Source: Candidatus Marinacidobacterales bacterium (GTDB lineage Bacteria; Acidobacteriota; Vicinamibacteria; Marinacidobacterales; DATDRI01). Taken from it: a stretch of DNA of 64,000 nucleotides. The stretch covers positions 5,568,001-5,632,000 of the forward strand of contig CBDCNP010000002.1 in NCBI GenBank assembly GCA_965219415.1. The letters are read 5' to 3'. Shown here one piece after another: positions 9,271 through 51,772 of the stretch. The position numbers and the translations under genes are program-made. The stretch's first letter is position 1. Every line of letters starts with the position of its first letter. The notes below the pieces were generated by a model that was not told the DNA's origin, did no database searches, and saw only the letters and a program-made list of their open reading frames with translations.

Positions 9271-10469
9271 GGTGCTTCCGCCATCAAGTGTTGCTACGCG
9301 GCTGCGGGCAGTGGTACAGGTGCGGAAGAGAGCGGGTTGCGCGCCCCAGTGAGCAGGAAAACCTCGATCCGCGACCACAAAGGAATCGTCGTCGCCAAGA
9401 AGATGTCTCGAAAGGTGAGCCGTCGCGTGGTGAGACCGGCCTGCATAGCCGGAGTTCGGATCTCACGTCCGAACTTCAGAGCTCCGTGCGGTCGGACGAA
9501 GTTGTAATAGCAACGGAGCAACTCCAGGTGCTCATCGAGCCTCTCCGTCGAGCGAGCGTGGGAAAGCGTTCGTCTCGAAAGGTATGCCGAGCTTTGCCGG
9601 ATGGTCAGATTCAACCGCTCGATGAATGACGTGTTCAATGTTGAGGAGTCCTCGGAGTTATTGAGCGCGTCATCAAATCGCCACGCGGCTCCGTGCAGCG
9701 CTCTGCGTTCGACCTTGATGATACGATCGTTCCTGCGCGTTTTGAGGACTTGGCCGTAGAGACACGCTGGCCCGAAGAAGCGACGGATGACCTTCTGGTA
9801 GAATTCGAATCCATCCGTAACGATCAAGGGAAGACCCTCGAAATTCATCCGCCTCGAAAGGTCGTGAAACAGAGCGTGAGTGTTCCGGTAGCTTCGCCTT
9901 CCCGTCACCGTCGATGGCCAGAGCCGAGACCAGACCTCGATCGTAACGAAGACCCAACTCGGCGTCTTCTTGTTGCCCGCGAACGTGCGAATCTCGTCGG
10001 CTTGAAGCTCTTCGGCAGCGAAGCCAGCGATCCTTGTGTGGTTGAATCGACGACACACTTGGGCTGCCTTCTCAAGCCAGCGGGCGACGGTGTTCCAGGC
10101 AATCCCTTCGATCCGGGAAATCGCGGAAATGCTGACACCCTCGACTCTGAGAGCGATGACCCCGTCGAAAGTAGCTCTTCGATGTTGGAGACGGTAGTAG
10201 GGCGTGCCTTTCGTCGAGGAGAACGTCTTTCCGCACTCGCCGCACCGGTATCGACGGCGTTTCCCAGACTTGGTTCGGTAGAATCCGTGGCGAACGATGT
10301 TTCCGGAACTGACTTTGCCCCGCAACGCACATGCGGGATTGAGACATCTGCTATTCTTCACTTCGGATTGCCCTTACGATGAGAGAACTGTGTCTTCGGA
10401 ATTCTGGCTCAAACTCTAGCACGCGAGCGGGTTACGCGGCGGCCACCAACACTTGATGGCGGAAGCACC
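9271..10469 (-). mobile_element. IS1-family element, intact; transposase 9294-10361
   Basis: perfect 23-bp TIR GGTGCTTCCGCCATCAAGTGTTG; zinc ribbon CLNPAC..CGEC, HTH, ADE/VTDG/IERLN DDE, YNFVRPH, TPAMQAGL; no target duplication. Confidence 0.9.
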
Positions 10470-15963: not shown

Positions 15964-17164
15964 GGTGCTTCCGCCATCAAGTGTTGCTACGCGGCTGCGG
16001 GCAGTGGTACAGGTGCGGAAGAGAGCGGGTTGCGCGCCCCAGTGAGCAGGAAAACCTCGATCCGCAACCACAAAGGAATCGTCGTCGCCAAGAAGATGTC
16101 TCGAAAGGTGAGCCGTCGCGTGGTGAGACCGGCTTGCATAGCCGGAGTTCGGATCTCACGTCCGAACTTCAGAGCTCCGTGCGGTCGGACGAAGTTGTAA
16201 TAGCAACGGAGCAACTCCAGGTGCTCATCGAGCCTCTCCGTCGAGCGAGCGTGGGAAAGTGTTCGTCTTGAAAGGTATGCCGAGCTTTGCCGGATGGTCA
16301 GATTCAACCGCTCGATGAACGAGGTGTTCAATGTCGAGGAGTCCTCGGAGTTATTGAGCGCGTCTTCGAATCGCCACGCGGCTCCGTGCAGCGCTCTCCG
16401 TTCGACCTTGATGATACGATCGTTCCTGCGCGTCTTGAGGACCTGGCCGTAAAGACACGCTGGACCGAAGAAGCGACGGGTTGACCTTCTGGTAGAATTC
16501 GAATCCATCCGTGACGATCAGGGGAAGACATCCGAAATTCATCCGCTTCGAAAGGTCGCGAAACAGAGCGTGAGTGTTCCGGTAGCTTCGCCTTCCCGTC
16601 ACCGTCGATGGCCAGAGCCGAGACCAGACTTCGATTGTAACGAAGACCCAACTCGGTGTCTTCTTGTTGCCCGCGAACGTGCGAATCTCGTCGGCTTGAA
16701 GCTCTTCGGCAGCGAAGCCAGCGATCCTTGTGTGGTTGAATCGACGACACACTTGGGCTGCCTTCTCGAGCCAGCGGGCGACGGTGTTCCAGGCAATCCC
16801 TTTGGTCCGGGAAATCGAGGAAATGCTGACACCCTCGACTCTGAGAGCGGTGACCCCATCGAAAGTAGCTCTTCGATGTTGGAGACGGTAGTAGGGCGTG
16901 CCTTTCGTCGAGGAGAACGTCTTTCCGCACTCGCCGCACCGGTATCGACGGAGTTTCCCGGACCTCGTTCTGTAGAATCCGTTGTGAATAATGCTTCTGG
17001 AACCGACTGTTCCATACGACGAACATGCGGGATTGAGGCATCTGCGATTCTTCACTTCGGCTCGGCCCTGACGATGAGAGAACTGTGTCTTCGGAATTCT
17101 GGTTCAAACTCTAGCACGCAGACCGGTTAGGGGCTGGCCGCCAACACTTAATTGCGGAAGCACC
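15964..17164 (-). mobile_element. IS1-family element, transposase frameshifted near 16480
   Basis: both TIRs present; ORFs 16351-17055 and 15987-16508 are the two halves. Confidence 0.9.
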
Positions 17165-19094: not shown

Positions 19095-19338
19095 GGTGCT
19101 TCCGCCATCAAGTGTTGCTACGCCGTGTTTGAATGCTAATGTCAGCTGGCCTGCCTGTGTCGGCGAACGCCATCAATAAGGATGTCGGCGTGCACACGAA
19201 GGTGTCCCTGAACGTCAGGCACCGTGTGGTCAGCCCAGCCCGCATCGCCGAAAGAACTGCGTCTCCAGAAATCAGGCTCAAACTCTAGCACACGAGCGGG
19301 TTACGCGGCAGCCACCAACACTTGATTGCGGAAGCACC
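19095..19338 (-). mobile_element. ~240-bp IS1-derived MITE (internal deletion derivative)
   Basis: both IS1 TIRs; keeps AMRAGLTTRCLTFRD transposase tail. Confidence 0.85.
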
Positions 19339-26483: not shown

Positions 26484-26612
26484 CGTCGTGTCCAAAAACA
26501 CAAACGCGTTGCCCAGCCCTTGATGGTTGTGCTCTCCACGATAATGATAGATGAACTCGGCGACGGCCCGTCGCGCGGGTCTTAGAGTTCGTTTGTATTT
26601 TTGGACACGACG
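26484..26612. mobile_element. ~128-bp MITE with type D TIRs
   Basis: CGTCGTGTCCAAAAACACAAACG...CGTTTGTATTTTTGGACACGACG; inverted copy at 32176-32303. Confidence 0.8.
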
Positions 26613-26615
26613 CGG

Positions 26616-27093
26616 TCAATGCACTTTGTATTTCGGCGGATCGGGCTCGAAGCTCTCGGGTCGGCTGTCCACCACCGGGCCCGAGTCGGCCTCGAATCCC
26701 ATCCCGGAGACGTGCACGTGCAATCGATTTTCTTCGACCGCTTTACGGAAGCGCGCCAGCAAGGTGTCTTTGATGAGGGTTGCGGAAGCCGGGCACGAGC
26801 AACGAGAAGCCGAATGCGTCGGTGAAGATCCCCGGTGTCATCAGCAGTGCGCCCGCGACGAGGATCATGACGCCGTCCGCAAGCGAGCCTGCGGGGACCT
26901 CGCCACGGGCCATCTGCTTCTGAGCGCGGGTCAAAACCGAGAGACCTTGCCGCCGTGCCAGATACGCACCCACGATGCCGGTGAAGACGATCAAGGCGAG
27001 CGTCAGCCACGTACCGAGATAGATTCCCGCTTGGATGAGAAGAGCGAGCTCCGCGGCGGGGACGATGACGAACAGCAAAAGAAGCTTTCCCAT
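26616..27093 (-). CDS. fxsA: FxsA family membrane protein, frameshift near 26780
   Basis: LFVIVPAAEL...GAYLARRQG...GALLMTPGIFTDAFG. Confidence 0.85.
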
Positions 27094-27410
27094 ACCGTCA
27101 TTATAGGAACGTTTTCCGGCCGCCATTGTAAAAAAGAGCTACAGATGGATAACTCTTTGCAAAGTCTACGGTTTGACACCGGCGTCCGCAGCCAACGATG
27201 CGGATGGTGGAACCACGATGTTGGCGAGCTACTTGTGCCTTCTATTTATTTATCCGCGCGCACCAAACTTGATTAATCTCCGGTCTGCCAGCACCATGCT
27301 GCCTTGGTGGGTGCTTCCGCCATCAAGTGATGGAATGGACTCCTCCACTGACATAGACGGCATCGATGTGCCAAAGTCAGTCGAATACGCATCGAAAAGG
27401 AGGAGTCCGA

Positions 27411-28442
27411 ATGAAAGATACGACAATCGCTGTGGATCTTGCAAAGAACGTCTTCGAGATTGCCATCTCGGGAGAAGCGGGGAAGGTGTCCAAGCAACTC
27501 CGTGTGAGTCGACCCAAATTGGTGTCGTTCTTTGCCAAACAGAGCGCTGCCACCGTGCTTCTCGAAGCCTGCGGCTCGGCTCACTTCTGGGCAAGGACGT
27601 TCCGAAGGTTGGGACACGACGTCGTCCTGCTCCCACCTCACCTCGTGAGGCCGTATCGACGCGGGAGCAAGAACGACCGCGCCGACACGAAGGCGTTGCT
27701 CGAGGCCTACAGGAACGAGGAGCTTCTTCCCGTACCCATCAAGTCCGTGCACCAGCACACCCTCGCTGCGCTCCATCGCCTGCGCTCAGGATGGCTCTCC
27801 ACACGGACCGCACGCATCAATGCCGTACGCGGGCTCCTGCGCGAACTCGGATTCATCATCCCAAAGGGCGCTCACTTCGTCGTGCCCGCCCTCTTCGAAC
27901 TCGTCGAAGACGCTGATTCTGATTTGCCCGACGTGCTCCGTTCGCATCTCCGTGATGCCTGCTCCGAGATTCGAGAACTCAAGGACAAGTGCGCTAGCAT
28001 CGAGCACGAGCTCAAGGCGCTCACCAAGCAGCTTCCTGAAGTCCAACGACTTCTCGCCATTCCCGGCATCGGACTTCTGGCCGCGACCGCCATCGTGGGC
28101 TTCGTCGGCGATCTTCGCCGCTTCCCATCGGGGCGCCGCTTCTCGAGCTACCTCGGCCTAGTTCCCAAGGAAAACTCCAGTGGCGACATTCGCCGCCTCG
28201 GACGCATCACCAAGCGTGGCGACTCCTACCTCCGTATGCTCCTCACCCAGGGCGGGCGCGCCGTGCTCCGCGCGGCGAACGTCAGCAAGAGCCCGCCCGA
28301 CAAGCTCCGCGCCTGGGCTCGGAAGGTCCACCGCTCGCGGGGACACAACAAGGCCGTGATTGCTGTCGCCAACAAACTCGCCCGGATCGTCTGGGCCGTC
28401 TCCACCCGCGAGAGTGAATTCCAGTCGCCGGTGGCCGCTTAG
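27411..28442 (+). CDS. IS110/IS1111 DEDD recombinase
   Basis: AGGAGG RBS; IAVDLAK, LEACG, KNDRAD, IPGIG and GLVP..NSSG motifs. Confidence 0.95.
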   Translation: MKDTTIAVDLAKNVFEIAISGEAGKVSKQLRVSRPKLVSFFAKQSAATVLLEACGSAHFWARTFRRLGHDVVLLPPHLVRPYRRGSKNDRADTKALLEAYRNEELLPVPIKSVHQHTLAALHRLRSGWLSTRTARINAVRGLLRELGFIIPKGAHFVVPALFELVEDADSDLPDVLRSHLRDACSEIRELKDKCASIEHELKALTKQLPEVQRLLAIPGIGLLAATAIVGFVGDLRRFPSGRRFSSYLGLVPKENSSGDIRRLGRITKRGDSYLRMLLTQGGRAVLRAANVSKSPPDKLRAWARKVHRSRGHNKAVIAVANKLARIVWAVSTRESEFQSPVAA

Positions 28443-28499
28443 ATTTAGAGGCTCCACTTTCGTGTTTTCCTTTTTCCCTTCCAAAAGAGGCTGCGACGA

Positions 28500-28680
28500 T
28501 ACCCATCCAACTGATGGCGTACCGGTCGGACCGGCGCGGGGTCAAGCCAATAGCAACACTGGCCCTAAGAGGTCGTTCAAAGTGATTGGCTCCTCGCGCG
28601 CGGATTTTCCATCATGGCCCGGAGCACCCAAGACGCTCCTCACTGAGGCCGAAGATACGTTTGCAGTCTGACCCACTCGT
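28500..28680 (+). ncRNA. predicted bridge/seekRNA of IS1111 copy 1
   Basis: two stem-bounded internal loops carrying target matches (TAGCAACACT, AAGTG) and donor matches (TTCCATCAT, AGATA); RNA ends approximate. Confidence 0.75.
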
Positions 28681-28772
28681 CACGACGCGATGGATGCGCA
28701 GCTTCGATGGAAGATTTATTAAGAAAGGGGCGTGACTAGAAAGAAAGGGGCTTGACTAGAGGAGTCCAGATA

Positions 28773-28995
28773 TGTTGCTACGCGGCTGCGGGCAGTGGTT
28801 CAGGTGCGGAAGAGAGCGAGTTACGCGCCCCAGTGAGCACGCAAAGCACGCAAACCTCGATCTGCGACCACAAAGGCATCGTCGTCGCCAAGAAGATGTC
28901 TCGAAAGGTGAGCCGTCGCGTCGTCAGACCAGCCTGCATAGCCGGAGTTCGGATCTCACGTCCGAACTTCAGAGCTCCGTGCGGTCGGACGAAGT
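28773..28995 (-). pseudogene. IS1-family 3' fragment
   Basis: homologous to 9289-9502; cut by the MITE at 28996. Confidence 0.85.
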
Positions 28996-29161
28996 GGTGC
29001 TTGCGCTGTTTACTGTTGGTGATGTGTACGCATCCCTTTGCAAAAGAGGCGCTTACGCTCCATTTAGCGCGCAGCGGAGGTCACGAGCGCTATTTTGGCT
29101 GTAATCTAATGCACCGTAAAGTCTTAGCGTCATCTCACCAACACTTAATGGCGGAAGCATC
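28996..29161 (+). repeat. ~165-bp IS1-type MITE
   Basis: same family as 17204-17369. Confidence 0.9.
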
Positions 29162-29204
29162 GATTTATGGGCTATTTCAAAAGGGCTGAGTTTTGGCACA
29201 GGAC

Positions 29205-30007
29205 GCCGTCGCCCGCTGGCTCGAGAAGGCAGCCCAAGTGTGTCGTCGATTCAATCACAGAAGGATCGCTGGCTTCGCTGCCGAAGAGCTTCAAGCCGAC
29301 GAGATTCGCACGTTCGCGGGCAACAAGAAGACACCGAGTTGGGTCTTCGTTACGATCGAGGTCTGGTCTCGGCTCTGGCCATCGACGGTGACGGGAAGGC
29401 GAAGCTACCGGAACACTCACGCTCTGTTTCGCGACCTTTCGAGACGGATGAATTTCGAGCGTCTTCCCTTGATCGTCACGGATGGATTCGAATTCTACCA
29501 GAAGGTCATCCGTCGCTTCTTCGGGCCAGCGTGCCTCTACGGCCAGGTCCTCAAAACGCGCAGGAACGATCGCATCATCAAGGTCGAACGGAGAGCGCTG
29601 CACGGAGCCGCGTGGCGATTCGAAGACGCGCTCAATAACTCCGAGGACTCCTCGACATTGAACACGTCGTTCATCGAGCGGTTGAATCTGACCATCCGGC
29701 AAAGCTCGGCATACCTTTCGAGACGAACACTTTCCCACGCTCGCTCGACGGAGAGGCTCGATGAGCACCTGGAGTTGTTCCGTTGCTATTACAACTTCGT
29801 CCGACCGCACGGAGCTCTGAAGTTCGGACGTGAGATCCGAACTCCGGCTATGCAAGCCGGTCTGACCACGCGACGGCTCACCTTGCGAGACATCTTCTTG
29901 GCGACGACGATTCCTTTGTGGTCGCGGATCGAGGTTTTCCTGCTCACTGGGGCGCGCAACCCGGTCTCTTCCGCACCTGTACCACTGCCCGCAGCCGCGT
30001 AGCAACA
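29205..30007 (+). pseudogene. IS1-family element, 5'-truncated by a type B end (29162-29204)
   Basis: VARWLEKAA...PVPLPAAA*. Confidence 0.9.
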
Positions 30008-31450
30008 TATCTGGACTCCTCTAGTCAAGCCCCTTTCTTTCTAGTCACGCCCCTTTCTTAATAAATCTTCCATCGAAGCTGCGCATCCATCGCGTCGTGA
30101 CGAGTGGGTCAGACTGCAAACGTATCTTCGGCCTCAGTGAGGAGCGTCTTGGGTGCTCCGGGCCATGATGGAAAATCCGCGCGCGAGGAGCCAATCACTT
30201 TGAACGACCTCTTAGGGCCAGTGTTGCTATTGGCTTGACCCCGCGCCGGTCCGACCGGTACGCCATCAGTTGGATGGGTATCGTCGCAGCCTCTTTTGGA
30301 AGGGAAAAAGGAAAACACGAAAGTGGAGCCTCTAAATCTAAGCGGCCACCGGCGACTGGAATTCACTCTCGCGGGTGGAGACGGCCCAGACGATCCGGGC
30401 GAGTTTGTTGGCGACAGCAATCACGGCCTTGTTGTGTCCCCGCGAGCGGTGGACCTTCCGAGCCCAGGCGCGGAGCTTGTCGGGCGGGCTCTTGCTGACG
30501 TTCGCCGCGCGGAGCACGGCGCGCCCGCCCTGGGTGAGGAGCATACGGAGGTAGGAGTCGCCACGCTTGGTGATGCGTCCGAGGCGGCGAATGTCGCCAC
30601 TGGAGTTTTCCTTGGGAACTAGGCCGAGGTAGCTCGAGAAGCGGCGCCCCGATGGGAAGCGGCGAAGATCGCCGACGAAGCCCACGATGGCGGTCGCGGC
30701 CAGAAGTCCGATGCCGGGAATGGCGAGAAGTCGTTGGACTTCAGGAAGCTGCTTGGTGAGCGCCTTGAGCTCGTGCTCGATGCTAGCGCACTTGTCCTTG
30801 AGTTCTCGAATCTCGGAGCAGGCATCACGGAGATGCGAACGGAGCACGTCGGGCAAATCAGAATCAGCGTCTTCGACGAGTTCGAAGAGGGCGGGCACGA
30901 CGAAGTGAGCGCCCTTTGGGATGATGAATCCGAGTTCGCGCAGGAGCCCGCGTACGGCATTGATGCGTGCGGTCCGTGTGGAGAGCCATCCTGAGCGCAG
31001 GCGATGGAGCGCAGCGAGGGTGTGCTGGTGCACGGACTTGATGGGTACGGGAAGAAGCTCCTCGTTCCTGTAGGCCTCGAGCAACGCCTTCGTGTCGGCG
31101 CGGTCGTTCTTGCTCCCGCGTCGATACGGCCTCACGAGGTGAGGTGGGAGCAGGACGACGTCGTGTCCCAACCTTCGGAACGTCCTTGCCCAGAAGTGAG
31201 CCGAGCCGCAGGCTTCGAGAAGCACGGTGGCAGCGCTCTGTTTGGCAAAGAACGACACCAATTTGGGTCGACTCACACGGAGTTGCTTGGACACCTTCCC
31301 CGCTTCTCCCGAGATGGCAATCTCGAAGACGTTCTTTGCAAGATCCACAGCGATTGTCGTATCTTTCATTTGGACTCCTCCTTTTCGATGCGTATTCGAC
31401 TGACTTTGGCACATCGATGCCGTCTATGTCAGTGGAGGAGTCCATTCCAT
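30006..31450 (-). mobile_element. IS1111-type element copy 2 (transposase 30338-31369; predicted guide RNA ~30100-30280) in the IS1 right TIR
   Basis: near-identical inverted copy of 27330-28774; outer TIR half CACTTGATGGCGGAAGCACC at 31451-31470. Confidence 0.92.
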
Positions 31451-31589
31451 CACTTGATGGCGGAAGCACCGGTCTATTTCTAAAGGGCCGAGTTTTGGCA
31501 CAGGACGGGGGATCTCGGAGGATCCAGTCTCGGAAATAGCACCGCCGCGCCCAGCTCTCGACATGCCCGGGAGGTGCTACAATGTGGGC

Positions 31590-31874
31590 ATGTTGAAGGT
31601 TCGCGAAGTTCGAGCGCTGCCCAAATACCAGATTTGGGTGCGTTACGAGGATGGCACCGAAGGCGAGGTGGACCTCATTCCCTTCGTCGGCAAGGGCATA
31701 TTCTCGTCGTGGGGTGATCCTGCATTCTTCGAGACCGTCCACGTGAGCCCCCACGGAAGCATCGCGTGGAACAAAGACATCGAGCTATGCCCGGACAGCA
31801 TCTACCTCGAGCTAACCGGAAAGAAGCCGGAGGAGGTTTTCCCTCGAATATCGGTCGCCGATGTAGATGCCTGA
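31590..31874 (+). CDS. DUF2442 family protein (putative antitoxin)
   Basis: VRALPKYQIWVRYEDGTEGEVDL...SIAWNKDIELCPDSIY. Confidence 0.8.
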   Translation: MLKVREVRALPKYQIWVRYEDGTEGEVDLIPFVGKGIFSSWGDPAFFETVHVSPHGSIAWNKDIELCPDSIYLELTGKKPEEVFPRISVADVDA

Positions 31875-32127
31875 GCTAAGCCGGTTTTATGGCATCGTCG
31901 TGCGGATGTTCTTCAACGATCATGCCCCTCCTCATTTCCATGCGTATTACGGGTCCGACGAGGCTCTCTTTGCCATCGAGACGCTATCGCTGACGGCAGG
32001 CCGCCTTCCCGCTCGCGCGACCGGTCTCGTTGTGGAGTGGGCCTCTCAACATCAGGATGAGCTCATGAGAGCTTGGAAGCGAGCCCGAAGTTTCGAGGCT
32101 CCCGGTCGGATCGATCCACTCCCTTAG
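31867..32127 (+). CDS. DUF4160 family protein (putative toxin)
   Basis: MPELSRFYGIVVRMFFNDHAPPHFHAYY...RIDPLP. Confidence 0.85.
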   Translation: MPELSRFYGIVVRMFFNDHAPPHFHAYYGSDEALFAIETLSLTAGRLPARATGLVVEWASQHQDELMRAWKRARSFEAPGRIDPLP

Positions 32128-32175: not shown

Positions 32176-32303
32176 CGTCGTGTCAAAAAACACGAACGAA
32201 CTCTAAGATCCTCGCGCCGGGCCGTCGCCGAGTTCATCTCTCATTATCAAGAAGAGCACGACCATCAAGGGCTTGCAACGCATTTGTATTTTTGGACACG
32301 ACG
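32176..32303. mobile_element. type D MITE, copy 2
   Basis: inverted homolog of 26484-26612. Confidence 0.8.
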
Positions 32304-51554: not shown

Positions 51555-51772
51555 GGTGCTTCCGCCATCAAGTGTTGTGGGCCAGCTCTAACCCGTGTGC
51601 GTGGTAGAGTTTGAGCTTAATTTCGAGAGACGCAGTTCTTTCGGCGATGCGGGCTGGGCTGACCACACGGTGCCTGACGTTCAGAAACCCCTTCGTGTGC
51701 ACGCCGACACAGGCAGGCCAGCTGACACTAGCATTCAAACACGGCGTAGCAACACTTGATGGCGGAAGCACC
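51555..51772 (+). mobile_element. IS1-derived ~220-bp MITE
   Basis: inverted homolog of 19095-19338; followed by a type D left end at 51773-51941. Confidence 0.85.

What the first reader, a model, noticed from the sequence alone, without database searches (positions are those of the whole stretch)
27310..31470. IS1111-type recombinase inserts site-specifically into the terminal repeat of an IS1-family transposon, twice
Seen: both copies sit at the same TG of GGTGCTTCCGCCATCAAG|TG|TTGCTA. Copy 1 reads ...ATCAAGTG-ATGGAATGGACTCCTC...GAGGAGTCCAGATA-TGTTGCTA and copy 2 is the mirror image. The two host IS1 fragments differ in sequence while the IS1111 copies are almost identical, which points to independent recent insertions. 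Known: IS4321/IS5075 target Tn21 TIRs and other IS1111 elements target attC or REP sites. Inference: this element is a hyper-parasite of an IS1 end that probably immobilises its host until it excises. I do not know of a described IS1-TIR-targeting member.
Basis: partly seen in the sequence, partly recalled or inferred. Interest (0 to 1): 0.85.

Follow-up and report, generated by a model that had tools for sequence, protein, structure and literature searches.

The report
RNA-guided IS that targets another IS's end
A small jumping gene of the RNA-guided IS110/IS1111 kind sits about thirty times in this genome, always at the same spot in one end of a second, IS1-like jumping gene and its miniature derivatives; this kind of transposon-on-transposon targeting is already known for other pairs.

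Summary
A 1445-bp IS110-family element of IS1111 layout sits at window 27328-28772 (+) and 30008-31452 (-). Both copies split the 26-bp right terminal inverted repeat (IRR, GGTGCTTCCGCCATCAAG|TG|TTGCTA) of a 1.2-kb IS1-like element.

In the whole genome, 32 of 32 left ends lie behind the outer TIR part. 30 of 32 right ends are followed by TGTTGCTA.

TIRs ending TGTTGCTA are occupied 27 times and empty 84 times. The sister end TGTTGGTG is occupied 0 of 185 times.

Hosts are full-length IS1-like copies, truncated relics and a ~240-bp MITE that shares this end.

The same IS (93-98% aa) sits in the same TIR in five other genomes.

The 3' non-coding region encodes a covariation-supported RNA (26 pairs, 14 compensatory). 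One strand of its internal loop is the reverse complement of each relative's own right flank. This fits the published seekRNA/bridge-RNA mechanism.

In one other genome, copies sit in ..TCAAG|TG|TTGCT.. sites without the rest of the TIR. Recognition is therefore of a short core.

Precedents exist: IS4321/IS5075 into Tn21 IRs, and IS1383 into IS1384 IRs. This is a new member of a known kind. Host immobilisation was not tested.

The parts
27310..27327 (+). Outer 18 bp of the right terminal inverted repeat (IRR) of host IS1-like copy A, cut off from the rest of the host by IS copy 1
   Evidence: sequence. The same 18-20 nt stands before all 32 left ends in the genome, with unrelated DNA further out.
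27328..28772 (+). IS110-family (IS1111-type) element, copy 1, 1445 bp. Boundaries follow the 7/3 terminal-extension rule. The TG at 27328-29 and 28773-74 is shared with the target, so 27330-28774 is equally valid.
   Evidence: blastn: 24 full-length copies (query 1-1445) at 99.9-100% and 2 at 99.4-99.6%, plus shorter and partial ones. An empty-site contig skips exactly 1445 bases.
27336..27345 (+). Left subterminal inverted repeat TGGACTCCTC
   Evidence: Partner at 28759-28768. It is 11-13 bp in relatives.
27411..28442 (+). Transposase/recombinase gene, 343 aa, ATG behind AAGGAGG
   Evidence: NF033542 'IS110 family RNA-guided transposase' 302.9 bits (cut-off 140). PF01548 and PF02371. GLVPKENSSG motif. 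Best named relative is the ISPa25 family at 45.9%.
28513..28613 (+). Predicted seekRNA/bridge-RNA core in the 3' non-coding region: five helices around an internal target-binding loop
   Evidence: Alignment of 19 relatives. RNAalifold gives 26 pairs, 14 with compensatory changes. 95.7% of cells paired against 33-47% when slid; 0 of 500 shuffles reach the observed values.
28551..28560 (+). 5' strand of the loop, TAGCAACACT: reverse complement of target top strand AG|TG|TTGCTA (top-strand guide)
   Evidence: 10-nt match, reached in 25 of 1000 shuffles. In 11 relatives with a readable right flank, the same loop strand is the reverse complement of that element's own right flank: longest own match 4-9 nt, mean 7.5, against a cross mean of 3.8.
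28578..28584 (+). 3' strand of the loop, CAAAGTG, resembling target top strand TCAAG|TG (candidate bottom-strand guide, weaker)
   Evidence: In relatives L006, L025, L013 and L015 this strand follows their own left flank. The exact-match statistic is weak: own mean 4.3 against cross mean 3.3.
28721..28760 (+). Two tandem 20-bp repeats. The second holds TTGACT (28752-28757), a -35-like hexamer. In a circle junction it would lie 18 nt before TGGAAT of the left end.
   Evidence: Some copies and G034 carry one repeat only. Promoter function is inferred only.
28759..28768 (+). Right subterminal inverted repeat GAGGAGTCCA
28773..28998 (-). Relic of host IS1-like copy A: inner 8 bp of the IRR and the 3' end of its transposase gene. 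The rest is missing.
   Evidence: 94-99% inverted repeat with 29791-30007. blastn query 793-1009.
28999..29161 (+). 163-bp MITE ('MITE-B') with TIR variants ending ..TTGGTG. The IS never occupies this variant.
   Evidence: Many copies at 88-96%. TIR hit at 29161. Occupancy 0 for ..CATTAAG TGTTGGTG ends.
29203..30007 (+). Host IS1-like copy B, 5'-truncated. ORF 29193-30002 gives 269 aa and lacks the zinc-finger/HTH part. It ends in the inner IRR.
   Evidence: Full-length copies continue upstream with different sequence.
30008..31452 (-). IS110-family (IS1111-type) element, copy 2. Transposase gene 30338-31369 on the minus strand.
   Evidence: 99.931% to copy 1 over 1445 nt. Pfam as for copy 1.
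31453..31470 (-). Outer 18 bp of the IRR of host copy B
9271..10469 (-). Intact, unoccupied host IS1-like element (1199 bp) for reference. IRR at 9271-9296 (..TGTTGCTA), IRL at 10444-10469 (..TGTTGGTG). Single 355-aa ORF 9294-10361 with zinc finger, HTH and DDE.
15964..17164 (-). Second intact, unoccupied host element (1201 bp)
19095..19338 (+). Unoccupied 244-bp MITE ('MITE-A'). It carries the targeted ..TGTTGCTA end at 19095 and a ..TTGGTG end at 19338. Another copy lies at 51555-51772.
   Evidence: 10 of 32 IS right ends in the genome lie in this MITE class.

Best explanation
The 1445-bp element is an autonomous IS of the IS1111 group of the IS110 family. It has a DEDD/RuvC-type recombinase gene (343 aa), short subterminal inverted repeats, and a 330-nt 3' non-coding region.

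That region encodes a structured RNA of about 100 nt (window 28513-28613). The 5' strand of its internal loop (UAGCAACACU) pairs with the top strand AG|TG|TTGCTA. The 3' strand (CAAAGUG) probably pairs with the bottom strand of TCAAG|TG.

These 12-14 bases lie inside the right terminal inverted repeat of a 1.2-kb IS1-like element, and inside a ~240-bp MITE with the same end. Together these offer about 110 copies of the site in this genome.

By analogy with studied family members, the IS is thought to excise as a circle (inferred). The recombinase-RNA complex would then integrate the circle at the TG, in one orientation, without target duplication. Insertion leaves the outer 18 bp of the host TIR on one side and the rest of the host on the other.

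Shown here:
- position and orientation specificity
- discrimination between the two host ends
- independent insertions into several host classes and in six genomes
- a covarying RNA whose loop tracks the flank across relatives

Inferred:
- the RNA is made and bound by the recombinase
- a circular intermediate exists
- a junction promoter forms (TTGACT-18 nt-TGGAAT)
- any effect on the host IS
For: Family:
- NF033542 302.9 bits against a cut-off of 140; PF01548 and PF02371.
- 343 aa with GLVPKENSSG.
- sTIR TGGACTCCTC/GAGGAGTCCA, 11-13 bp in relatives.
- Long NCR downstream of the gene.
- Nearest named transposase is the ISPa25 family at 45.9%. ISPa25 is treated as an IS1111-type, attC-targeting IS in PMC11187229 (section 9 read).

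Specificity:
- 32 of 32 left ends lie behind the same 20-mer; 30 of 32 right ends lie before TGTTGCTA.
- Occupied/empty by inner octamer: TGTTGCTA 27/84, TGTTGGTG 0/185, TGTTGGCG 1/76, TGTTGGTA 0/32. Fisher p = 2e-16; copies are not independent.
- Right flanks fall into at least four unrelated classes just beyond the TIR. Outer flanks are unique except for one duplicated pair.

Other genomes:
- 23 matches to the TIR+left-end pattern against 24 left ends in G034, 16 against 15 in G018 (looser pattern), 4 against 4 in G014, 4 against 4 in G026 and 5 against 11 in G016. These are counts from two separate patterns and were not matched site by site.
- In G016, two of the six copies outside the TIR sit in ..TCAAG|TG|TTGCT...

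RNA:
- 26 consensus pairs, 14 compensatory; 95.7% paired against 33-47% when slid; 0 of 500 shuffles.
- The loop strand is the reverse complement of the element's own right flank in relatives with other targets. Examples: G008 GCAACTGCGT against flank ACGCAGTTGC; L025 against GGGCTGCTA; L033 against ACGGCGTTA.
- The top-strand match lies 5' of the bottom-strand match and they overlap at the insertion point. This is the order reported for IS1111-type seekRNAs (PMC11187229, abstract and section 9).
Against: - No RNA, circle junction or excision event was observed. The public runs are kept only as contigs. The one 'skip 1445' contig is most simply an empty TIR from another host copy.
- Rfam 15 gave no hit in 27200-29300 other than a chance miRNA match.
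- The single-sequence fold is no more stable than shuffles (z = -1.28).
- The bottom-strand guide is short here (5-7 nt with a bulge). Its exact-match statistic across relatives is weak: own 4.3 against cross 3.3.
- The 10-nt top-strand match alone is reached in 25 of 1000 shuffles.
- An 8-nt match TGATGGCG (28512-19) that I first read as a guide proved to be conserved scaffold.
- One insertion lies in an IRL-type end (TGTTGGCG), which mismatches the guide at three positions.
Confidence: 0.85

Rival explanations
1. One original insertion into a host end. The copies then multiplied because the composite (IS1-like element or MITE plus the IS110-type insert) was moved by the IS1-like transposase, or was spread by gene conversion between host copies. 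Repeated site-specific insertion would not be needed.
For: After insertion the hybrid end still matches 23 of 26 positions of the IRR, so a composite might still be recognised. Three of the ten MITE-borne copies share an identical first 45 nt of the right flank. Two copies share their outer flank, which indicates a segmental duplication.
Against: - Insertions lie in at least four host classes that share only the 26-bp TIR: the IS1-like IRR, MITE-A, a third class CGCCGCTAGA.., and one IRL-type end. That is too little homology for conversion.
- Host sequences next to the copies differ by several percent while the IS copies are 99.4-100% identical.
- G016 has copies in non-TIR sites that share only the 12-nt core.
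Confidence: 0.08
2. Target choice is made by protein, not by an RNA guide. The recombinase, or the host's own transposase bound to its end, would recognise the TIR as DNA.
For: No RNA was observed here. The bottom-strand guide is weak. One insertion lies in a guide-mismatched IRL-type end.
Against: - Across relatives at 46-61% aa identity, the loop strand changes together with the flank while the scaffold is kept.
- Insertions in G016 need only the short core.
- An RNA requirement has been shown experimentally for other IS1111 members (PMC11187229, abstract).
Confidence: 0.05
3. The flanking GGTGCTTCCGCCATCAAG and TTGCTA are the IS110-type element's own termini, so there is no second element and no targeting.
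For: They accompany nearly every copy.
Against: The uninterrupted 26-mer stands at the ends of about 30 1.2-kb elements that carry their own DDE transposase gene, and at the ends of MITEs: 84 empty sites in all. The insert is exactly 1445 bp.
Confidence: 0.01

Closest known systems
[quoted passage not shown]
   Same: IS1111-type layout. Insertion at one position and in one orientation inside the TIR of another transposable element. No target duplication.
   Different: The host here is a 1.2-kb IS1-like IS and its MITE, not a Tn3-family transposon. Only one of the two host ends is used, because the ends differ at guide positions. The transposase is only distantly related; the best named plasmid-borne relative is the ISPa25 family at 45.9%.
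IS1383 (IS110 family), whose specific integration target is the inverted repeats of IS1384 in Pseudomonas putida H (Muller, Lauf & Herrmann 2001; only the title was seen, in the reference list of PMC11208160. IS1384 is listed as IS5 family in a table of PMC5141477)
   Same: An IS110-family IS that uses the inverted repeat of another IS as its target. This is the same kind of IS-on-IS relation.
   Different: Different host family (IS5 against IS1-like) and different organisms. I could not read the paper, so positions and orientation cannot be compared.
ISEc11, ISPa11, ISKpn4/ISPst6/ISPa25: IS1111-type elements with an experimentally shown seekRNA (Siddiquee et al. 2024, PMC11187229; abstract and sections 6, 9, 13 read). 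Also the IS621 bridge RNA (Durrant et al. 2024, PMC11208160; passages read)
   Same: 3' NCR RNA with a top-strand match 5' of a bottom-strand match, overlapping at the insertion point. Natural reprogramming between relatives. sTIR and terminal extensions.
   Different: Their targets are a short linear site, REP sequences or attC sites. No biochemical evidence exists for the element described here.
IS1111 of Coxiella burnetii, inserting into the REP inside QMITE2 (PMC5896051, passages read)
   Same: An IS1111-type element that uses a MITE as its landing site, with MITE copies diverging once occupied.
   Different: There the site is a palindrome inside the MITE. Here it is the terminal inverted repeat that the MITE shares with its autonomous parent.

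Membership tests
IS110 family, IS1111 group | DEDD (RuvC-like) N-terminal domain plus PF02371 C-terminal domain | tested here: met
   PF01548 45.7 bits and PF02371 85.5 bits, both above cut-off. NF033542 302.9 bits against 140. IS621 and ISCro4 transposases are the only PDB sequence hits.
IS110 family, IS1111 group | Transposase of 330-350 aa with GL-P----S(t)G motif (PMC11187229 section 6) | tested here: met
   343 aa; GLVPKENSSG present.
IS110 family, IS1111 group | Subterminal inverted repeats: usually 11-13 bp (PMC11187229), 7-17 bp (PMC11208160) | tested here: met
   10 bp perfect, TGGACTCCTC/GAGGAGTCCA, in this element. 11-13 bp and longer in relatives.
IS110 family, IS1111 group | Asymmetric terminal extensions, 7 bp left and 3 bp right | tested here: met
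   With the sTIR aligned as in relatives (ATGGACTCC.../...GGAGTCCAT), the extensions are TGATGGA (7) and ATA (3). With the strict 10-bp repeat they are 8 and 4.
IS110 family, IS1111 group | Long non-coding region downstream of the transposase gene | tested here: met
   330 nt (28443-28772) downstream against 83 nt upstream.
IS110 family, IS1111 group | seekRNA/bridge RNA with the top-strand match 5' of the bottom-strand match | tested here: inconclusive
   Structure and top-strand guide are well supported by covariation. The bottom-strand guide is weak. No expression data. No Rfam model matched.
IS110 family, IS1111 group | Circular intermediate; insertion without target duplication | tested here: inconclusive
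   No duplication beyond the shared TG; the insert is exactly 1445 bp. The circle is not testable, because the runs are held as contigs only.
IS1 family (host element) | IS1-type DDE transposase with N-terminal zinc finger and HTH | tested here: inconclusive
   NF033558 is the best family (E = 9e-24) but at 84.5 bits is below the cut-off of 100. PF03400 gives 21.4 against 24.1. The nearest plasmid-borne relatives, at 28-32% identity, are annotated IS1 family transposase. C-x-x-C...C-x-x-C and HTH are visible in the 355-aa ORF.
IS1 family (host element) | Terminal inverted repeats of about 20-30 bp | tested here: met
   26-bp TIRs identical at 22-23 of 26 positions between the ends. About 30 elements of about 1200 bp.
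IS1 family (host element) | Target-site duplication of 8-9 bp (canonical IS1; recalled, not from a call) | tested here: not met
   Of 69 TIR pairs, 45 have 0 bp, 15 have 1, 6 have 2 and 3 have 3 identical flanking bases. I recall that some IS1 subgroups are listed with 0-10 bp; this was not checked.
TIR-targeting IS110-family elements (IS4321/IS5075, IS1383 kind) | Fixed position and orientation inside the terminal inverted repeat of another transposable element, in independent copies | tested here: met
   32 of 32 left ends and 30 of 32 right ends. Several host classes. Six genomes.

The most novel reading that the evidence does not exclude
The element is a specialised hyper-parasite that co-travels with its host IS family across at least four genera. 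Its conserved left end rebuilds 23 of 26 positions of the host TIR. The composite could therefore stay mobilisable by the host's transposase. The IS110-type element would then gain a second, piggy-back route of spread, while the RNA guide lets it colonise every new host copy and MITE. Alternatively, it disables the host end and curbs the IS1-like/MITE expansion.
Probability: 0.15. Interest if true: 0.6.

Novelty: new member of a known kind. Interest (0 to 1): 0.35.

Why it matters
It adds a third documented type of host (an IS1-like IS and its MITE) to the short list of IS110/IS1111 elements that live inside the ends of other transposons.

It also offers an unusually rich natural specificity data set for an RNA-guided recombinase:
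- about 110 cognate sites, of which 27 are occupied
- about 300 near-cognate ends that differ by 2-3 bases, with one occupied
- off-TIR insertions in a sister genome that define the minimal core

That could help calibrate mismatch tolerance of IS1111-type guides. It does not change how the family is understood.

Tried and rejected
1. I first read TGATGGCG (28512-19) as a second target guide, because it matches the bottom strand of the TIR. The alignment of relatives shows it is conserved scaffold: helix 1, pairing with CCATCA at 28609-13. Rejected.

2. I considered TTCCATCA (28607-14) as a donor guide for the left end. It belongs to the same helix and does not covary with left-end changes. Rejected.

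3. Rfam 15 scan of 27200-29300 gave only a sub-threshold miRNA match.

4. Public runs: all 24 are held as contigs. Laying four of them gave no go-back joint, that is, no circle junction. Contigs cannot show one, so this says nothing either way. Parts of the stretch without cover in the two RNA-labelled runs also say nothing.

5. An X18 contig replaces 28541-28645 by 99 other letters. This may be a relative with another guide region. Not followed up.

6. Enrichment of truncated hosts among occupied ones: 4 of 17 occupied are full-length against 31 of 59 empty, Fisher p = 0.052. Too weak to claim.

7. Search for target-site duplications of the host element: none found.

9. The two literature searches for an IS110-family element in IS1 ends returned nothing specific. 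ISfinder is not available here, and supplements of the two 2024 papers, which list targets of about 300 IS, could not be seen. A described IS1-TIR-targeting member may exist there.

Full report
**What is there**

Window 27310-31470 holds two copies of a 1445-bp element in inverted orientation: 27328-28772 (+) and 30008-31452 (-). They flank about 1.2 kb of other repeats. Each copy carries one gene, 27411-28442 in copy 1, of 343 aa behind AAGGAGG. The gene matches NF033542 'IS110 family RNA-guided transposase' at 302.9 bits (cut-off 140), and PF01548 plus PF02371. The protein has the GL-P----SG motif, here GLVPKENSSG. The element has subterminal inverted repeats TGGACTCCTC/GAGGAGTCCA. It has short asymmetric extensions, 83 nt of 5' leader and 330 nt of 3' non-coding DNA. 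These are the features by which Siddiquee et al. 2024 separate the IS1111 group from IS110 proper (PMC11187229, sections 4 and 6). The nearest named transposase among plasmid records is the ISPa25 family at 45.9% identity.

Both window copies split GGTGCTTCCGCCATCAAG|TG|TTGCTA at the same TG. The two IS copies differ at 1 of 1445 bases. The host DNA beside them is 94% alike over 154 nt.

The assembly has 8.05 Mb in 3 contigs. blastn finds 24 full-length copies (query 1-1445) at 99.9-100% and 2 at 99.4-99.6%, plus shorter and partial ones. Searching for the ends gives:
- 32 of 32 left ends preceded by GGTGCTTC(C/T)GC(C/T)ATCAAGTG.
- Of 32 right ends, 30 followed by TGTTGCTA, one by TGTTGGCG, and one by the element's own non-coding region (a nested or tandem copy).

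DNA outside the GGTG differs at each copy, apart from one duplicated pair. GGTG is therefore the tip of the element that is being hit.

**The host**

The uninterrupted 26-mer is the right end (IRR) of an element of about 1200 bp, for example window 9271-10469 and 15964-17164. The left end (IRL) of that element reads ..GTGTTGGTG or ..GGCG. It encodes one 355-aa protein with a Cys-rich N-terminus, an HTH and a DDE core.

IS1 is its best family in NCBIfam (E = 9e-24), but the score of 84.5 bits is below the curated 100. Pfam DDE_Tnp_IS1 is also just below cut-off. Plasmid-borne relatives at 28-32% identity are annotated as IS1 family. I found no target-site duplication: 45 of 69 TIR pairs have 0 bp, and the maximum is 3. 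I therefore call it IS1-like, not a proven IS1 member.

The genome holds 451 TIR-like sites within 5 mismatches. They belong to about 30 full-length copies, many relics and at least two MITE families. MITE-A (about 240 bp; window 19095-19338 and 51555-51772) has the same ..TGTTGCTA end. MITE-B (163 bp; window 28999-29161) has ..CATTAAGTGTTGGTG ends.

In the window, host copy A is a 226-bp relic (28773-28998). Host copy B is 5'-truncated (29203-30007). A MITE-B and a 44-bp repeat lie between them.

**Specificity**

Counts by the inner eight bases of the TIR, occupied against empty:
- TGTTGCTA: 27 against 84.
- TGTTGGTG: 0 against 185.
- TGTTGGCG: 1 against 76.
- TGTTGGTA: 0 against 32.

GCTA ends against all other ends gives Fisher p = 2e-16. 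Copies are related, so this overstates the case. Ends with CATCAAG but GGTG instead of GCTA are never used (0 of 34).

Hosts of the 32 right ends are 10 MITE-A, 4 full-length IS1-like elements, and 18 relics or others. The right flanks diverge into at least four unrelated classes immediately after the TIR. Together with the 99.4-100% identity of the inserts, this argues for repeated site-specific insertion. It argues against spread of one composite or gene conversion.

**Other genomes**

In 41 genomes of the same order (G000 included), the same IS at 89-98% aa identity is found in G034, G016, G018, G014 and G026. All five are in a different family from G000. It was not found in the 7 same-family genomes searched.

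All seven sampled loci from G034, G016, G018 and G014 have the same left flank.

The TIR-plus-left-end pattern matches 23, 5, 16, 4 and 4 times in these five genomes, in the order listed. The left-end pattern alone matches 24, 11, 15, 4 and 4 times. These come from two separate patterns and were not matched site by site.

The six G016 copies outside the TIR are informative. Two lie in ..TTTCAAG|TG|TTGCTTGA.. and ..TATCAAG|TG|TTGCTGAG.. with no other TIR sequence. Two lie in sequence of the IS itself. Two have flanks I could not assign. What is recognised is therefore a core of about 12-14 nt. In G000 that core occurs 83 times unoccupied, always in a TIR.

**Mechanism**

I aligned the 3' non-coding region of this element with 18 relatives. 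These were G018 at 93% aa identity, and G008 and 16 others at 46-61% from the same class. RNAalifold gives five helices with 26 pairs, 14 of them with compensatory changes. On my count, 95.7% of cells pair, against 33-47% when partners are slid by 1-3 columns. No shuffle out of 500 reaches the observed values.

The helices enclose an internal loop. Its 5' strand in this element is TAGCAACACT (28551-28560), the reverse complement of AG|TG|TTGCTA. In relatives with other flanks, the same loop strand is the reverse complement of their own right flank:
- G008: GCAACTGCGT against ACGCAGTTGC.
- L014: GAACAAGGG against CCCTTGTTC.
- L025: TAGCAGCCC against GGGCTGCTA.
- L033 and L034: TAACGCCGT against ACGGCGTTA.

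Among the 11 relatives whose right flank is readable, the longest own match is 4-9 nt (mean 7.5). The mean of all cross comparisons is 3.8.

The 3' strand (CAAAGTG, 28578-28584) resembles the left flank plus TG. It follows the left flank in several relatives (L006 10 of 12, L025 9 of 10, by eye). The exact-match statistic is weak, at 4.3 against 3.3.

The order (top-strand match first) and the overlap at the insertion point are what Siddiquee et al. report for IS1111-type seekRNAs (abstract and section 9). Durrant et al. likewise place the bridge RNA of IS1111 elements in the right end (passage read).

I infer, but did not show, that the RNA is made and that the element moves through a circle. 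I also infer that the junction forms a promoter: TTGACT at 28752-57, then 18 nt, then TGGAAT of the left end. A TTGAYT hexamer lies at the same place in the three relatives I checked by eye (G018 and G016, L013).

**What was not confirmed**

No circle junction or excision could be looked for, because all 24 public runs are contigs. One contig that skips exactly 27330-28774 is most simply an empty TIR elsewhere. Rfam has no matching family. The single-sequence fold is not exceptional (z = -1.28).

The insert removes the inner eight TIR bases and everything behind them from the outer 18 bp. However, its own left end restores 5 of those 8, so the hybrid end matches 23 of 26. Occupied IS1-like hosts are less often full-length: 4 of 17 against 31 of 59, p = 0.052. 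This is suggestive at most.

**Comparison and novelty**

Targeting of another transposon's terminal repeat by this family is known. IS4321/IS5075 hit Tn21-family IRs (Partridge & Hall 2003, cited in both 2024 papers; the paper itself is not held). Muller et al. 2001 state in their title that the inverted repeats of IS1384 are the specific target of IS1383 (reference list). IS1384 is listed as IS5 family. IS1111 of Coxiella lands in a MITE.

My searches found no report of an IS1-like TIR as target. ISfinder and the supplements with about 300 target logos were not available. I rate it a new member of a known kind. Its value is mainly as a large natural specificity data set for an IS1111-type guide RNA.

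Noticed in passing
window 29162-29205 and 31471-31507; genome-wide: A repeat of about 37-44 bp (GGGCTATTTCAAAAGGGCTGAGTTTTGGCACAGGACG) occurs about 367 times within 4 mismatches (342 on C3, 25 on C2, 0 on C1). It often abuts the outer tip of the IS1-like TIR; 4 of the IS left flanks show it. It may be a preferred landing site of the IS1-like element and its MITEs, or the end of yet another element.
   Followed up: partly
window 27236-27262 and 26592-26612 / 32283-32303; genome-wide: Two further short repeat families were seen. TGCCTTCTATTTATT... has about 225 copies and TTTGTATTTTTGGACACGACG about 240 copies. They produce the inverted repeats 26515-26618/32170-32273 and 27231-27300/32561-32630 around the finding. 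Their nature is unknown.
   Followed up: partly
whole assembly (C1 2.07 Mb, C2 0.28 Mb, C3 5.69 Mb): All these repeat families are concentrated on C2 and on C3 beyond about 2.5 Mb; TIR-like hits per 0.5 Mb of C3 run 0,3,0,16,3,41,50,34,100,97,52,28. C1 has 2 of 451 TIR-like hits and none of the IS copies. Contamination is given as 8.45%. C1 may be another replicon with a different history, or may not belong to the same organism.
   Followed up: no
G000:C3:3315126-3316854: An IS copy (positions 1-1444) is followed directly by positions 1160-1445 of a second copy. The right end is joined to GGCTGCGA of the element's own non-coding region. G016 loci L039 and L040 likewise show the IS next to its own sequence. 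This looks like self-insertion or abortive recombination between copies.
   Followed up: no
G008 loci L006, L012: A relative at 61% aa identity sits in a palindromic, REP-like site CGCAACTGCG-TCCAGA-(T/C)G-CAGTTG(C/T)G. Its loop strand GCAACTGCGT matches that site. This is a natural retargeting within the same order.
   Followed up: partly
run X18, contig over window 28521-28671: A contig from a metatranscriptome-labelled run matches the scaffold on both sides but has 99 other letters in place of 28542-28644, which is the guide-bearing part. It may be a relative with a different target.
   Followed up: no
window 31563-32127: A DUF2442 gene (31563-31874) and a DUF4160 gene (31867-32127) overlap by 8 bases right next to the IS cluster. 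I recall this pairing from small toxin-antitoxin-like or phage-associated modules. An FxsA gene lies at 26743-27126 (-).
   Followed up: no
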